DNA of 64,000 nucleotides from Escherichia coli. GTDB taxonomy: Bacteria > Pseudomonadota > Gammaproteobacteria > Enterobacterales > Enterobacteriaceae. The stretch lies in the NCBI RefSeq assembly GCF_003790525.1, contig NZ_CP033635.1. The stretch is one strand, 5' to 3'. Position 1 is the stretch's first letter; each line of letters begins with the position of its first letter. Shown in pieces: positions 28,218 to 34,200 of this stretch. The position numbers are program-made.

Positions 28218-31200
28218 TAATTGTGTGGACTGGCATCCGTTGGGTGCTGGTCCGTATTCTTCAGCACAGCTGACGGCGCATAACCAAATTTATTTTTAAA
28301 GGCTTTGCTGAAATGAAAGGAGTCGAAGAAGTTGAGCGTATCAGCGACTTCGCCAACCGAGTTTCCTTGTTGTTTTAATAGCGATAGCGCCAGATCCAGA
28401 CGCGCATCGAGGTAATATTCTTTCGGCGTCTTGCCGGTATAGCGTAAAAACAGACGACGCAACCAGGCTTCGCTACAGGGGATCGTGGCAGCCATATCAG
28501 CTACGCTCCAGCGTTGTTGCAGACTGGCATGTAAAGTGGCAATTAAATTTTCAATTTGCCGCCGTTGTGGATCTTTTTTACCGTCTGCGTACATAAGACA
28601 AATCCACTGATAAATAATTTTCGTCAGAAAAGCGACTGCCAGATTATTTTTTATTGCTTCTGGTGAAGTTATTAACTCAGCAACTTCGGTGAGTTCCTGA
28701 TTATAAATTTCGCCATTATAAATAACGCTTTGCTGACCAACGGGAATATCCATCATACTGGTTGGGGTAAATTCCATCCAGTACTGTTCCCATACTAAAC
28801 CTTCACAGTGATAAGAGTGAATATCCATTGGCTTTAAAAATATAATACAGTTGCCATGCAGTGTTATTTGTTCACCATTCTTTAAAATAATTTTCCCACA
28901 TCCTTGTACGGTATACACCGCAACCCATGAGTTGGCGATAAGCGGTTTCTTCTTGTCCCGCGGCCAGATCACCCGGTAATGCTCGTCGGCGTAGGTATGC
29001 CAGAGCGAGATCAGAGAAATTCCGCTGGAGATCACATTTTCGTTAATCAATAAGGGAATATTGTACGGAGTTTCGTTTTTTACATCCGAACTTTGCAATT
29101 TTCCATTCATTTTAATATCCCTCCGGCGAATTATGCTCACAACCTGAACTTAACAGAAAACAATCCGTTCAGGGATACGACGTTTGTATTTTAAGAATCT
29201 GACTGCCTGACCCGACGCATTTTACCTCTCCCTATATTCATGCGTCCGGGACATAAACATAAATAAGGGCTATGAGATGAATTCGTTACAAATCTTGAGT
29301 TTTGTCGGTTTTACGCTGCTGGTGGCGATCATCACCTGGTGGAAGGTTCGCAAAACAGATACCGGATCGCAACAAGGCTATTTTCTTGCCGGACGTTCAC
29401 TAAAAGCGCCGGTTATTGCCGCTTCGTTAATGCTAACCAACCTTTCCACGGAACAACTGGTTGGACTTTCCGGGCAGGCCTACAAAAGCGGCATGTCGGT
29501 GATGGGCTGGGAAGTCACTTCTGCGGTGACGCTGATCTTCCTCGCGCTAATCTTTTTACCGCGCTATCTGAAGCGTGGCATTGCCACCATCCCCGATTTC
29601 CTGGAGGAACGTTATGATAAAACGACGCGTATTATCATCGACTTCTGCTTCCTCATTGCCACCGGTGTCTGCTTTCTGCCGATTGTTCTCTACTCCGGCG
29701 CGTTGGCGCTCAACAGCCTGTTTCACGTCGGGGAATCGTTACAAATTTCCCACGGTGCGGCTATCTGGCTATTGGTAATTTTGCTTGGTCTGGCGGGAAT
29801 TTTGTATGCGGTGATCGGCGGACTGCGCGCAATGGCAGTGGCGGACTCCATCAACGGTATTGGGCTGGTTATTGGCGGGTTGATGGTGCCGATATTTGGC
29901 CTGATCGCGATGGGCAAGGGCAGCTTTATGCAGGGCATTGAGCAACTCACCACCGTTCACGCCGAGAAATTAAACTCAGTCGGTGGCCCGACCGATCCCT
30001 TGCCGATTGGCGCGGCATTTACCGGTTTGATTCTGGTGAACACCTTTTACTGGTGTACAAATCAGGGCATCGTGCAACGCACGCTGGCGTCAAAAAGCCT
30101 GGCGGAAGGGCAAAAGGGGGCGCTGTTAACGGCGGTGCTGAAAATGCTCGACCCGCTGGTACTGGTGCTGCCAGGGTTGATTGCGTTTCATCTGTATCAG
30201 GATTTACCTAAAGCCGACATGGCCTACCCGACGCTGGTCAATAACGTTCTGCCAGTGCCACTGGTGGGTTTCTTCGGCGCGGTGTTATTTGGTGCGGTGA
30301 TCAGTACCTTCAACGGCTTTCTGAATAGCGCCAGTACGTTATTCAGTATGGGTATTTACCGGCGCATCATTAACCAGAATGCCGAGCCGCAGCAGCTGGT
30401 CACCGTTGGGCGCAAATTTGGTTTCTTTATCGCCATCGTTTCGGTGCTGGTCGCGCCGTGGATCGCCAACGCGCCGCAGGGGCTGTATAGCTGGATGAAA
30501 CAGCTCAACGGTATTTACAACGTGCCGCTGGTTACCATCATCATTATGGGCTTTTTCTTCCCGCGCATCCCGGCGCTGGCGGCAAAAGTGGCGATGGGGA
30601 TTGGCATAATCAGCTACATCACCATCAACTATCTGGTGAAGTTCGACTTCCATTTCCTCTATGTGCTGGCCTGTACGTTCTGCATCAACGTGGTCGTGAT
30701 GCTGGTGATCGGTTTTATCAAACCGCGCGCCACGCCGTTCACCTTCAAAGATGCGTTTGCGGTGGACATGAAACCGTGGAAAAACGTCAAGATCGCGTCA
30801 ATTGGCATCCTGTTCGCTATGATTGGCGTCTATGCCGGGCTGGCTGAATTCGGCGGCTACGGTACGCGCTGGTTAGCGATGATCAGTTATTTCATCGCTG
30901 CCGTAGTGATTGTCTACCTGATTTTTGACAGCTGGCGGCATCGTCACGACCCAGCCGTAACCTTTACTCCCGACGCGAAGGATAGCCTATGAAACGCCCC
31001 AATTTTCTGTTCATCATGACCGATACCCAGGCCACCAATATGGTCGGTTGCTATAGCGGTAAGCCGCTGAATACGCAAAATATTGATAGTCTGGCGGCGG
31101 AAAGTATTCGCTTTAATTCCGCCTATACCTGTTCACCGGTTTGTACACCAGCGCGCGCCGGGCTGTTTACCGGTATCTACGCTAACCAGTCCGGCCCGTG

Positions 31201-34200
31201 GACCAACAACGTCGCGCCGGGCAAAAACATCTCCACTATGGGACGCTACTTTAAGGATGCGGGCTATCACACCTGTTACATCGGCAAATGGCATCTCGAC
31301 GGTCATGACTATTTCGGCACTGGCGAGTGTCCGCCGGAGTGGGACGCTGATTACTGGTTCGATGGGGCGAACTACCTTAGCGAACTGACGGAAAAAGAGA
31401 TCAGCCTGTGGCGCAATGGCCTAAACAGCGTTGAGGATTTACAGGCGAACCATATCGACGAAACCTTCACCTGGGCGCATCGCATCAGCAATCGGGCGGT
31501 AGATTTTCTGCAACAGCCCGCGCGCGCCGAGGAACCCTTCCTGATGGTGGTTTCGTATGATGAGCCGCATCACCCGTTCACCTGTCCGGTGGAGTATTTA
31601 GAGAAATACGCTGATTTTTACTACGAACTTGGCGAGAAATCACAGGATGACCTGGCGAACAAACCGGAACATCACCGCTTATGGGCGCAGGCGATGCCAT
31701 CGCCAGTCGGTGATGACGGGCTTTATCACCATCCGCTCTATTTTGCCTGCAATGACTTTGTTGATGACCAAATCGGACGGGTCATCAATGCCTTAACGCC
31801 AGAGCAACGTGAAAATACGTGGGTCATTTATACCTCCGATCACGGTGAAATGATGGGCGCACATAAGTTGATCAGTAAAGGAGCGGCGATGTATGACGAC
31901 ATCACCCGTATTCCGCTGATCATCCGTTCGCCGCAAGGGGAGCGGCGGCAGGTCGATACGCCAGTCAGTCATATCGATTTACTGCCGACAATGATGGCGC
32001 TGGCAGATATTGAAAAACCAGAGATTCTGCCGGGGGAAAATATCCTTGCCGTGAAAGAGCCACGCGGCGTAATGGTGGAATTTAACCGCTACGAGATTGA
32101 GCATGACAGCTTTGGCGGTTTTATTCCGGTGCGTTGCTGGGTGACGGATGACTTTAAACTGGTACTCAACCTCTTCACCAGTGATGAACTTTACGATCGC
32201 CGTAATGACCTAAATGAAATGCATAATCTGATCGATGATATCCGTTTTGCCGACGTTCGCCGCAAAATGCATGACGCCTTATTGGATTACATGGATAAAA
32301 TTCGCGATCCGTTCCGCAGTTACCAATGGAGTCTGCGTCCGTGGCGTAAAGATGCACGACCGCGCTGGATGGGGGCGTTTCGTCCACGCCCACAAGATGG
32401 CTATTCGCCAGTGGTACGCGACTATGACACCGGCCTACCGACACAAGGGGTGAAGGTGGAAGAGAAAAAACAGAAGTTCTGATGCATTATTGCTGTTCCT
32501 GGCCTACTTTTTCGGCGAGGAACAGTTTACAAGGAGCAACAATGAAAATTTCCCGCCTCAGAGAAGCGCCCGATTACCGCTTCTCGCTGGCTAATGAGCG
32601 TACTTTTCTGGCGTGGATCCGTACCGCACTAGGATTTCTGGCGGCGGGGGTTGGGCTTGATCAACTTGCGCCAGATTTCGCCACGCCCGTCATTCGCGAA
32701 CTGCTGGCGTTGTTGTTGTGTCTGTTTTCCGGCGGGTTAGCGATGTATGGCTACCTGCGCTGGTTACGCAATGAAAAAGCGATGCGTCTGAAAGAGGACC
32801 TGCCCTACACCAACAGCTTATTAATCATCAGCTTAATATTGATGGTCGTAGCGGTGATCGTTATGGGACTGGTGTTGTATGCCGGATAGCCGCAAAGCCA
32901 GACGCATTGCCGACCCAGGGCTGCAGCCGGAGCGTACATCACTGGCGTGGTTTCGTACCATGCTGGGCTACGGCGCGTTGATGGCGTTGGCTATCAAACA
33001 CAACTGGCACCAGGCGGGCATGTTATTCTGGATTTCGATTGGCATTCTCGCCATTGTGGCGCTGATCCTCTGGCACTACACCCGTAATCGCAATTTAATG
33101 GATGTCACGAATAGCGATTTTTCCCAATTTCACGTAGTCCGTGACAAATTTTTGATCTCCCTCGCGGTGTTATCTCTCGCAATACTGTTTGCTGTAACGC
33201 ATATACATCAACTTATCGTATTTATTGAGAGAGTCGCATGACAGGAAGTCAGGTCATTGATGCTGAAGAGGACAGGCATAAACTGGTTGTAGAGTACAAG
33301 GATGCTCTGCAACCTGCCGATTTTTATCACAATTTCAAACAACGGGGTATCCGCTCCGTACAGCTTATTCCCCATCTTGAATTTGATGACCGGGGCGATC
33401 TGACGGCCGCTTCGGTGACAGCAGAGCTGTGGGGGAAATTTTTAATTGCCCTGTTCGAGTGTTGGGTACGGGCAGATATCAGTCGTATTTCGATTGAGCT
33501 TTTTGACGCCACCCTACAAAAATGGTGTGGCAGCGAAAACCCGCAACCGCGCCGTGGCTGCCAGGCGTGCGACTGGCATCGCCTGTGCCCGCACGCTCGG
33601 GAGGAGACGCCAGACAACGTGCTTTGTGCGGGCTATCAGGCGTTTTATTCTTACTCCGCGCCGCATATGCGGGTGATGCGTGATCTGATAAAGCAGCATC
33701 GTTCTCCCATGGAGCTGATGACGATGCTGCGGTGACGTGAGCTTAAACGGGCTGCCCCTGATGCGACATCCGCGTCGCCAGCGGTAGCCAGCACAGCACG
33801 ATCAACAATCCCATTAAGGTCATCAACAACCCCAGGCTGCCCTGACCGGTTTGCGGCAACATCGCAGAGAGCGACGCCAGCACGCCGGAACCAATGTTTT
33901 GTAGACCGCCGACCAGCGCGCCAGCCGTGCCCGCCAGGAAAGGGAACGGCTCCATCGCGCCGCTGGTCGCCAGCGGAAACAGCATCCCGGCACCGAAAAA
34001 GAACAGCGCGGCGGGAACGAGCAGCGTCCAGACATTCATCACGCCAAACCAGTCGGGGATCCACATTAGCAAGCCAGCCAGCAGGCAGCAGATAACCGAC
34101 TGCCACATTAACGTGGAGAAGCGTTTATTGGGACGTCCGGCAAACCATGCGCCAAAAAACGCTGCCGGAATCGGCAGAATAAACAAAATACTGACCGTCA

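What the first reader, a model, noticed from the sequence alone, without database searches (positions are those of the whole stretch)
30989..33735. Sulfatase yidJ is followed by a Cys-rich remnant (yidF) lacking the radical-SAM N-terminus
YidJ carries the C-x-P-x-R sulfatase motif, which requires formylglycine maturation. YidF looks like only the C-terminal Cys-rich portion of an anaerobic sulfatase-maturating enzyme and has no CxxxCxxC motif, so the local maturase is probably non-functional or fragmentary and YidJ activity would need a maturase encoded elsewhere.
Basis: partly seen in the sequence, partly recalled or inferred. Interest (0 to 1): 0.3.

Follow-up and report, generated by a model that had tools for sequence, protein, structure and literature searches.

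The report
Shrunken sulfatase-maturase relic kept by selection
E. coli yidF is a shrunken copy of a sulfatase-activating radical-SAM enzyme that has lost its catalytic core, yet it has been kept intact by natural selection next to two small membrane-protein genes, so it is a repurposed protein rather than dead debris.

Summary
The window is E. coli SMS-3-5.

YidF (165 aa) descends from an anaerobic sulfatase maturase. Orthologs at the same position in Citrobacter braakii, Kluyvera, Kosakonia and others are full length (about 370 aa, CxxxCxxC, above the TIGR03942 cutoff). Compared with them, E. coli YidF has in-frame internal deletions:
- Residues 10-151 (the AdoMet/radical-SAM core).
- Residues 244-302 plus four more residues (all four Aux I cluster ligands).

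It keeps the original start codon, the last part of the barrel, the four Aux II ligand cysteines and a nearly invariant C-terminal helix. No radical-SAM fragment lies anywhere else in the window.

YidF therefore cannot be YidJ's maturase; aslB lies 131 kb away. It is not a neutral remnant either:
- The reading frame is intact in 36 short-form loci spanning about ten genera.
- dN/dS is 0.09-0.33.
- It is always coupled to yidH-yidG, with or without yidJ.
- The short architecture probably arose more than once.

The truncation is old knowledge. The selected "mini" form appears undescribed, and its function is unknown.

The parts
28217..29110 (-). yidL, an AraC-type regulator transcribed divergently from the operon
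   Evidence: RefSeq annotation of the identical SMS-3-5 region; ORF list
29277..30992 (+). yidK, a solute:sodium symporter and the first gene of the operon. Its end overlaps the yidJ start by 4 bp.
30989..32482 (+). yidJ, a Cys-type (type I) sulfatase with no signal peptide. The Pfam match starts at residue 4, so the protein is cytoplasmic.
   Evidence: PF00884 E=2.8e-71 and SGSH_C E=4.6e-15; omega 0.05-0.06 between Escherichia species
31142..31156 (+). Codons for C52-T-P-A-R56, the formylglycine (C-x-P-x-R) signature of YidJ
   Evidence: Read from the translation
32542..32889 (+). yidH, a DUF202 inner-membrane protein (115 aa)
   Evidence: PF02656 E=2.8e-19; present upstream of yidF in all related loci
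32879..33241 (+). yidG, a second DUF202 membrane protein (120 aa). Its stop codon overlaps the yidF start (ATGA).
   Evidence: PF02656 E=7.1e-12; the 4-bp overlap is conserved in 35 of 36 short and 18 of 28 full-length loci
33238..33735 (+). yidF, a 165-aa internally deleted derivative of an anaerobic sulfatase-maturating enzyme
33262..33267 (+). Approximate junction of deletion 1 (codons 9/10). Full-length residues 10-151, which hold CxxxCxxC and the AdoMet-binding core, are missing here.
   Evidence: Alignments to full-length orthologs. The boundary is uncertain by a few codons.
33529..33558 (+). Junction region of deletion 2 (codons 98-107, poorly conserved). Full-length residues ~244-302, which hold the three N-terminal Aux I cysteines, are missing.
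   Evidence: AF2 pLDDT is below 50 at residues 101-107
33559..33627 (+). Codons C108-x2-C111-x5-C117 ... C130, which align with anSMEcpe C317, C320, C326 and C348 (the four Aux II [4Fe-4S] ligands). The equivalent of C330, an Aux I ligand, was removed by a further 4-residue deletion.
   Evidence: Alignment; ligand identities from PMC5715301. C108, C111 and C130 are invariant, and at least 4 Cys remain in this segment in all 36 short forms.
33658..33732 (+). Nearly invariant C-terminal tail, APHMRVMRDLIKQHRSPMELMTMLR (residues 141-165)
   Evidence: Invariant columns; pooled pN/pS 0.15 with non-zero dS; AF2 helices with pLDDT about 90

Best explanation
yidF is the miniaturised, catalytically dead descendant of the yid operon's own anaerobic sulfatase-maturating enzyme.

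Origin. The ancestral gene encoded about 370 aa with CxxxCxxC and a full SPASM motif. It is still found right after yidH-yidG in C. braakii, Kluyvera, Kosakonia, Atlantibacter and others. In-frame internal deletions removed the AdoMet/radical-SAM core and the Aux I half of the SPASM domain. The start codon and the translational coupling to yidG were left in place.

What it cannot do. The E. coli protein cannot cleave AdoMet or oxidise Cys52 of YidJ. Formylglycine in YidJ must therefore come from AslB, YdeM or the still-unidentified E. coli Cys-type system.

What remains. The product keeps the last beta/alpha units of the barrel, a four-cysteine site equivalent to Aux II, and a nearly invariant C-terminal helix. 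It is maintained by purifying selection. I infer, without having shown it, that it acts as a small non-catalytic or single-[4Fe-4S] subunit. Its partners would be the DUF202 membrane proteins YidH and YidG, with which it is always co-encoded, rather than the sulfatase.

Shown: the deletion anatomy, the loss of catalytic motifs, the conservation, the selection and the synteny.
Inferred: Fe-S binding, partnership with YidG/YidH, and any physiological role.
For: - Homology to anSME: TIGR03942 E=3e-21. For anSMEcpe, YidF 27-95 matches residues 175-246 and YidF 105-152 matches residues 314-370. Foldseek top hits are 4k36-4k39, E about 1e-6.
- Full-length orthologs sit at the same position after yidH-yidG in 28 loci. 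C. braakii scores 478 bits against a cutoff of 349.
- Deletion map: 10-151, 244-302 and 319-322.
- No radical-SAM fragment exists elsewhere in the window.
- Aux II ligands are retained and Aux I ligands are lost.
- The short ORF is intact in 36 short loci (165-249 aa), and 35 of them overlap the yidG stop by 4 bp.
- dN/dS is 0.09-0.12 for E. coli against cryptic Escherichia clades (Fisher p=5e-19) and 0.05-0.33 in other short lineages. Pooled pN/pS is below 0.45 in every region and 0.15 in the tail.
- Full-length forms have omega 0.04-0.10 over the matching barrel segment, so constraint on the short forms is relaxed only about 2-3 fold.
- yidH-yidG precede yidF in all 63 scanned loci and in the other loci fetched by protein. 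yidJKL is present or absent independently of the yidF form.
- Further enterobacterial forms of 310-315 aa keep their length but have destroyed CxxxCxxC and GGE motifs and a deleted Aux I region. They still carry the conserved tail and sit after yidH-yidG.
- The short architecture is not monophyletic (2% bootstrap). Leclercia/Silvania short forms group with the Leclercia full-length form (79-81% bootstrap). They share a 5-residue deletion with the Leclercia full-length form; the Leclercia short forms also share its QQSHRA tail.
Against: - No experiment here shows that the protein is made, binds iron-sulfur, or touches YidG/YidH.
- The cysteine segment is the least confident part of the AF2 model (pLDDT 46-59).
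- The third Aux II ligand position is Tyr in many Citrobacter short forms, with other cysteines nearby.
- The AF2 confidence may be borrowed from full-length sequences in the alignment.
- A few alleles are broken: E. albertii NBRC 107761 (frameshift), L. adecarboxylata NCTC13032 (in-frame stop) and Enterobacter sp. EA-1. The gene is therefore dispensable in some strains.
- dS of yidF (0.7-0.9) is higher than that of its neighbours (about 0.5). Using the neighbours' dS raises omega to about 0.16.
- The pairwise NG86 estimates are not tree-based.
Confidence: 0.7

Rival explanations
1. Neutral remnant. yidF is a decaying pseudogene fragment of the former maturase, with no function of its own.
For: It lacks every catalytic motif. 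Junction regions and the former CPKHR motif have degenerated. Some strains carry frameshifted or stop-containing alleles. Different lineages show different extents of N-terminal erosion.
Against: - The ORF is intact from the ancestral ATG to the conserved stop in 36 short-form loci spanning about ten genera, although it is the last gene of the operon and has nothing downstream to protect.
- dN/dS is 0.09-0.33, with p=5e-19 for a single pair.
- The C-terminal 25 residues are almost invariant while synonymous sites vary.
- All the large deletions are in frame.
Confidence: 0.08
2. YidF still serves sulfatase maturation, but non-catalytically. It could act as a YidJ-specific chaperone or docking factor, as an electron-transfer (Aux II) partner for AslB or YdeM, or as part of the unidentified third Cys-type maturation system of E. 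coli.
For: - YidF descends from the operon's maturase and is still co-transcribed with yidJ in Escherichia, Salmonella arizonae, K. oxytoca and Superficieibacter.
- It keeps the Aux II ligands, and Aux II is thought to relay electrons to the protein surface in anSMEcpe (PMC5715301).
- The E. coli Cys-type maturation machinery is still unidentified (PMC6189696 and PMC8379841, both citing Benjdia 2007).
Against: About 25 short-form loci (C. freundii complex, Leclercia, Silvania, K. pneumoniae, Raoultella) keep yidH-yidG-yidF with no adjacent yidJKL. The conserved partner is therefore the DUF202 pair, not the sulfatase. There is no experimental link.
Confidence: 0.15
3. The reading frame is kept for a non-protein reason. 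Translation through yidF might stabilise the operon mRNA, or the 3' end might hold a DNA or RNA element for the convergent emrD gene, whose stop codon is 7 bp away.
For: The yidF and emrD stop codons are 7 bp apart, and no terminator-like hairpin was found between them.
Against: The tail is equally conserved at the amino-acid level in Citrobacter and Leclercia, where the downstream gene is dsdA rather than emrD. Synonymous divergence in the tail is substantial (dS 0.38-0.6 among Escherichia species) while dN is about 0.
Confidence: 0.04

Closest known systems
Anaerobic sulfatase-maturating enzymes (anSME: AtsB, AslB, ChuR, anSMEcpe; TIGR03942; radical SAM-SPASM)
   Same: The homology is clear and there is direct orthology to full-length anSMEs at the same chromosomal position. 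The full-length YidF of C. braakii is 48% identical to E. coli AslB. E. coli YidF retains the Aux II cysteines and the C-terminal helices, and it sits in an operon with a CxPxR sulfatase.
   Different: It lacks the CxxxCxxC motif, about 140 residues of the AdoMet radical barrel and all four Aux I ligands. It is 165 aa rather than about 370-410 aa and scores far below the family cutoff. It cannot carry out radical chemistry.
Twitch-domain radical SAM enzymes (shortened SPASM with one auxiliary cluster)
   Same: Both are reduced SPASM architectures that can hold only one auxiliary cluster (description in PMC5715301).
   Different: Twitch proteins keep the first half of the motif (the Aux I side) and lose CX2CX5CX3C. 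They also keep a working radical-SAM core. YidF does the opposite: it keeps CX2CX5C...C (the Aux II side) and has no core.
Pseudoenzymes (catalytically dead paralogs or orthologs kept under selection)
   Same: The catalytic residues are lost but the protein is conserved under purifying selection. The loss has happened repeatedly in related lineages, including the 310-315 aa forms with mutated motifs.
   Different: Here most of the catalytic domain is physically deleted rather than mutated, and no replacement function is known.
E. coli aslA-aslB and ydeN-ydeM sulfatase/maturase pairs
   Same: All three loci pair a sulfatase gene with an anSME-family gene. From memory, Schirmer & Kolter 1998, which is cited for yidJ in PMC12585060, noted this arrangement.
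   Different: aslB is full length (411 aa) and adjacent to aslA with no DUF202 genes between. The yid locus inserts the yidH-yidG pair, and its maturase is gutted.

Membership tests
Anaerobic sulfatase-maturating enzyme (radical SAM-SPASM, TIGR03942) | N-terminal CxxxCxxC motif that binds the radical-SAM [4Fe-4S] cluster | tested here: not met
   No such motif occurs in the 165-aa sequence. The segment is deleted relative to full-length orthologs, which carry CNLxCRYC at residues 15-22. No copy exists elsewhere in the window.
Anaerobic sulfatase-maturating enzyme (radical SAM-SPASM, TIGR03942) | AdoMet-binding partial (beta/alpha)6 TIM barrel (Pfam Radical_SAM PF04055) | tested here: not met
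   There is no Pfam hit at E<=1. Only the part equivalent to anSMEcpe residues ~160-250 remains.
Anaerobic sulfatase-maturating enzyme (radical SAM-SPASM, TIGR03942) | Complete seven-cysteine SPASM motif that binds two auxiliary [4Fe-4S] clusters | tested here: not met
   The equivalents of C255, C261, C276 and C330 (Aux I) are deleted. The equivalents of C317, C320, C326 and C348 (Aux II) are present as C108, C111, C117 and C130. PF13186 does not hit the protein.
Anaerobic sulfatase-maturating enzyme (radical SAM-SPASM, TIGR03942) | Whole-protein score at or above the curated family cutoff | tested here: not met
   YidF scores 75.9 bits against a cutoff of 349.45. The full-length ortholog from C. 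braakii scores 478.2 bits.
Anaerobic sulfatase-maturating enzyme (radical SAM-SPASM, TIGR03942) | Common descent with family members (significant homology and orthologous position) | tested here: met
   E=3e-21 to TIGR03942. Full-length orthologs lie after yidH-yidG in 28 loci. Fold match to 4k36-4k39.
Anaerobic sulfatase-maturating enzyme (radical SAM-SPASM, TIGR03942) | Converts Cys or Ser of the sulfatase signature to formylglycine | not testable with these tools
   This needs FGly mass spectrometry of YidJ in yidF, aslB and ydeM mutants.
Type I (formylglycine-dependent) sulfatase: YidJ | Sulfatase fold plus the C/S-x-P-x-R signature near the N-terminus | tested here: met
   PF00884 E=2.8e-71 over residues 4-341. 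C52-T-P-A-R56 followed by AGLFTG.
Neutral pseudogene / gene remnant | Disrupted reading frame and dN/dS near 1 | tested here: not met
   The ORF is intact in 36 short-form loci. Omega is 0.09-0.33 and p=5e-19 for E. coli against Escherichia sp. E1V33.
DUF202 (PF02656) membrane proteins: YidH, YidG | Match to PF02656 above the gathering score | tested here: met
   69.8 and 46.0 bits against a cutoff of 23.4.

The most novel reading that the evidence does not exclude
Mini-YidF, together with the DUF202 membrane pair YidH/YidG, forms a previously unrecognised three-protein module. In it, a stand-alone Aux II-type [4Fe-4S] half-SPASM domain does redox or signalling work at the membrane. In E. coli this module might be part of the long-sought third Cys-type sulfatase maturation route, the one that is neither FGE nor anSME.
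Probability: 0.07. Interest if true: 0.75.

Novelty: new variant of a known kind. Interest (0 to 1): 0.38.

Why it matters
Practical points:
- RefSeq names this protein "radical SAM protein", which it cannot be.
- Anyone expressing or studying YidJ should not count on a local maturase.

Conceptual points:
- The yidH-yidG-yidF locus is a clean natural series: full-length enzyme, then motif-dead 310-aa forms, then 165-250-aa mini forms.
- It shows a radical-SAM/SPASM enzyme being converted, probably more than once, into a small conserved protein that keeps only the Aux II half of the SPASM motif.
- This offers a handle on what the distal auxiliary cluster and the C-terminal helices do on their own.
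- It also points to a function for the uncharacterised DUF202 proteins YidG and YidH.
- It bears only weakly on the open question of how E. coli matures Cys-type sulfatases.

Tried and rejected
1. I searched for a disrupted radical-SAM segment upstream or elsewhere. tblastn of full-length YidF (C. braakii, Kluyvera) and AslB against the whole window, word size 2, E<=10, hit only the yidF ORF. The idea of a split or frameshifted gene is rejected.
2. L002, an enterobacterial MAG, at first looked like a 162 + 204 aa split gene. The split is caused by an "nn" assembly gap, and the gene is a normal full-length anSME.
3. I aligned Leclercia full-length and short alleles at the DNA level to look for exact deletion break-points or microhomology. 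The junction codons have diverged too far to define the boundaries.
4. A single origin of all short forms is not supported: monophyly has 2% bootstrap. However, deletion 2 has almost the same boundaries everywhere, so I cannot tell whether that reflects structural constraint or shared ancestry with recombination.
5. A wider DUF202 link failed. A distant, high-GC degenerate anSME-like protein (P0171) has no DUF202 neighbours.
6. The literature library holds no paper that contains both yidF and sulfatase. Most "yidF" hits are unrelated strings or typos for ydiF. Benjdia 2007 could not be opened.
7. Conservation of the tail as an emrD-related element is rejected, because the tail is equally conserved where dsdA is the downstream gene.

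
Full report
**Identity of the region.** Window 30500-34500 is 100% identical to the E. coli SMS-3-5 chromosome, and the locus is present in 5420 of 5426 complete E. coli genomes. The gene order is as follows:
- yidL (AraC-type regulator, minus strand)
- yidK (29277-30992, sodium:solute symporter)
- yidJ (30989-32482)
- yidH (32542-32889)
- yidG (32879-33241)
- yidF (33238-33735)
- emrD, convergent, with its stop codon 7 bp from the yidF stop

**The sulfatase.** YidJ matches Pfam Sulfatase over residues 4-341 (E=2.8e-71). It carries C52-T-P-A-R56 followed by AGLFTG, the Cys-type formylglycine signature. The family match begins at residue 4, so there is no signal peptide and the enzyme is cytoplasmic. 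That fits uptake of a sulfated substrate by YidK. yidJ is under strong purifying selection among Escherichia species (omega 0.05-0.06).

**What YidF is.**
- Pfam finds nothing in YidF.
- NCBIfam finds the anaerobic sulfatase maturase model TIGR03942 at E=3e-21. The score is only 75.9 bits against a cutoff of 349, and the match comes in two stretches.
- Against the solved anSMEcpe structure, YidF 27-95 aligns with residues 175-246 and YidF 105-152 aligns with residues 314-370. The protein therefore lacks both the N-terminal ~160 residues and an internal ~65 residues.
- According to PMC5715301, Aux I of anSMEcpe is ligated by C255, C261, C276 and C330, and Aux II by C317, C320, C326 and C348.
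- In the alignment, YidF C108, C111, C117 and C130 are exactly the four Aux II positions. All four Aux I ligands are missing.
- An AlphaFold2 model built from 63 orthologs is confident (pLDDT 80.8, pTM 0.79), except at residues 1-3 and 101-129, which include the cysteine loop. Its best structural matches are the anSMEcpe entries 4k36-4k39 (E about 1e-6). The confidence may be inherited from full-length sequences in the alignment.

**Where it came from.** A scan of one genome per species found 63 enterobacterial loci. In every one the homolog lies immediately after a yidH-yidG pair.
- In 28 loci the gene is 350-376 aa long. These include C. braakii, C. werkmanii, C. sedlakii, C. amalonaticus, Trabulsiella, Pseudocitrobacter, Atlantibacter, Kluyvera, Kosakonia and Yokenella.
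- Of these 28, 27 keep an intact CNLxCRYC (CxxxCxxC) motif. The exception is the 360-aa allele of Enterobacteriaceae RIT691 (L040), where the motif is mutated.
- These genes start MTGCxVMAKPASSRC. The C. braakii protein scores 478 bits on TIGR03942 and is 48% identical to E. coli AslB.

Aligned to these, E. coli YidF is the same gene with in-frame internal deletions of residues 10-151, 244-302 and 319-322. It keeps the ancestral start (MTGSQVIDA) and the ATGA overlap with the yidG stop. So it is not a 5'-truncated fragment. tblastn with full-length proteins finds no leftover radical-SAM piece anywhere in the 64 kb window.

**Is it a dead remnant?** The evidence says no.
- Short forms of 165-249 aa with no complete radical-SAM core (one 192-aa C. 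amalonaticus allele still keeps a CxxxCxxC) have intact ORFs in 36 loci. These cover Escherichia, the C. freundii complex, Salmonella arizonae and diarizonae, Klebsiella, Raoultella, Superficieibacter, Silvania, Leclercia, Pluralibacter and others. In 35 of the 36 the gene overlaps the yidG stop by 4 bp. yidF is the last gene of the operon, so polarity cannot explain why the frame is preserved.
- Nei-Gojobori dN/dS is 0.09-0.12 between E. coli and cryptic Escherichia clades. For one pair there are 29 non-synonymous and 51 synonymous differences, Fisher p=5e-19. In other short lineages the value is 0.05-0.33.
- Every region is constrained. Pooled pN/pS values are 0.33 (residues 1-25), 0.29 (26-95), 0.41 (96-107), 0.25 (108-140) and 0.15 (141-165).
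- Over the matching barrel segment (reference residues 152-243), full-length genes have omega 0.04-0.10. Constraint on the short forms is therefore relaxed about 2-3 fold, not lost.
- The tail APHMRVMRDLIKQHRSPMELM is almost invariant across all 63 sequences, while its synonymous sites vary.
- C108, C111 and C130 are invariant, and all 36 short forms keep at least four cysteines in this segment.
- By contrast, the GDCPKHR motif, which is invariant in full-length forms, has degenerated in short forms. That is expected once Aux I and catalysis are gone.

**Repeated loss of catalysis.**
- An exhaustive profile search found further enterobacterial forms of 310-315 aa. They keep their length but have destroyed CxxxCxxC and GGE motifs and a deleted Aux I region, and they retain the conserved tail. 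Two of these (P0117, P0123) were located and also sit after yidH-yidG.
- On the 110 shared positions, all short forms together are not monophyletic (2% bootstrap).
- Leclercia and Silvania short forms group with the full-length gene of Leclercia sp. 29361 (79-81% bootstrap, 78-82% identity, against 63% or less to short forms of other genera).
- These forms share a 5-residue deletion with the Leclercia full-length gene, and the Leclercia short forms also share its QQSHRA C-terminal extension. Their flanking YidH, YidG and EmrD are 93-98% identical.

The compact architecture therefore probably arose at least twice. Recombination cannot be fully excluded, and the second deletion has strikingly similar boundaries everywhere.

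**Partner genes.** yidJKL is present or absent independently of the yidF form.
- Escherichia, S. arizonae, K. oxytoca and Superficieibacter have a short yidF with yidJ.
- The C. freundii complex, Leclercia and Silvania have a short yidF without yidJ. There the order is yidE-yidH-yidG-yidF.
- Kosakonia and Yokenella have a full-length yidF without yidJ.

The constant association is with the DUF202 pair. This is why I tie the retained function to YidG/YidH rather than to the sulfatase. That step is inference.

**Consequences for YidJ.** YidF cannot make formylglycine. A complete aslB-aslA pair is annotated at 4262605-4265653 in SMS-3-5, 131 kb from yidF and outside the window. The literature states that the E. 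coli machinery for Cys-type sulfatases is still unidentified and that a third system beyond AslB and YdeM is suspected (PMC6189696 and PMC8379841, citing Benjdia et al. 2007).

**What is known already.**
- K-12 annotates YidF as uncharacterised. RefSeq/PGAP calls it "radical SAM protein", which is misleading.
- From memory, Schirmer & Kolter 1998, which is cited for yidJ in PMC12585060, already paired yidJ with yidF as a short AtsB-like gene. I could not read that paper here.
- No paper in the searchable library discusses yidF together with sulfatases.

The truncation itself is thus old knowledge. As far as I can tell, the following have not been described: the internal-deletion anatomy, the selective retention of only the Aux II side, the purifying selection, the obligatory yidH-yidG linkage, and the repeated loss of catalysis.

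**Verdict.** The feature is a real, modestly interesting pseudoenzyme-like variant of a known family. Its mechanism is unproven.

Noticed in passing
window 32483-32541 (yidJ-yidH spacer): This strain lacks yidI. In K-12, a 450-bp gene on the opposite strand sits between yidH and yidJ. In an evenly spaced sample of 40 of 5420 E. coli genomes, 11 had the contiguous yidI-less junction, 26 had yidI inserted, and 3 matched only the yidH side, meaning the yidJ end is missing. Full-length-yidF genera also lack yidI, so it looks like an Escherichia-specific insertion that is polymorphic in E. coli.
   Followed up: partly
window 33238-33735; RefSeq WP_000148045.1: PGAP names YidF 'radical SAM protein', although the protein has no radical-SAM core, no CxxxCxxC and no Pfam Radical_SAM hit. 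This is an annotation carried over from partial homology.
   Followed up: yes
L003 8544-12389; also L005, L006, L075: In Citrobacter and Leclercia the D-serine locus lies immediately downstream of yidF and convergent with it. It comprises dsdA (TIGR02035, 787 bits), dsdX and dsdC. [quoted passage not shown] This may be coincidence; the link is untested.
   Followed up: partly
L020 (E. albertii NBRC 107761), L058 (Leclercia adecarboxylata NCTC13032), L067 (Enterobacter sp. EA-1), L040 (Enterobacteriaceae RIT691): Some yidF alleles are genuinely broken or decaying. There is a frameshift in L020, an in-frame stop in L058 and a fragment in L067. L040 is a 360-aa allele whose CxxxCxxC is mutated to CNLNSRC. 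Sequencing error was not excluded.
   Followed up: no
L002 7955-7956: An 'nn' in the MAG assembly GCA_002322335.1 splits a full-length yidF ortholog into 162-aa and 204-aa gene calls. The 204-aa product entered protein databases as a stand-alone SPASM protein.
   Followed up: yes
window 33733-33745: The yidF stop (TGA at 33733-33735) and the stop of the convergent emrD gene (33743-33745) are 7 bp apart, with no terminator-like hairpin between them. One terminator-like hairpin lies inside yidF at 33479-33497 on the plus strand. How the two convergent transcripts terminate is unclear.
   Followed up: no
window 32482-32541: In this yidI-less strain an ATG at 32482 overlaps the yidJ stop codon and would extend YidH by 20 residues (a 135-aa ORF). 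The annotated and conserved YidH start is at 32542 (115 aa). The extension is probably not used.
   Followed up: no
P0171 / L073 5001-5984: A distant, high-G+C, 327-aa anSME-like protein also lacks CxxxCxxC and the Aux I segment, but it has no DUF202 neighbours. Catalytically dead anSME relatives may therefore exist outside Enterobacteriaceae.
   Followed up: partly
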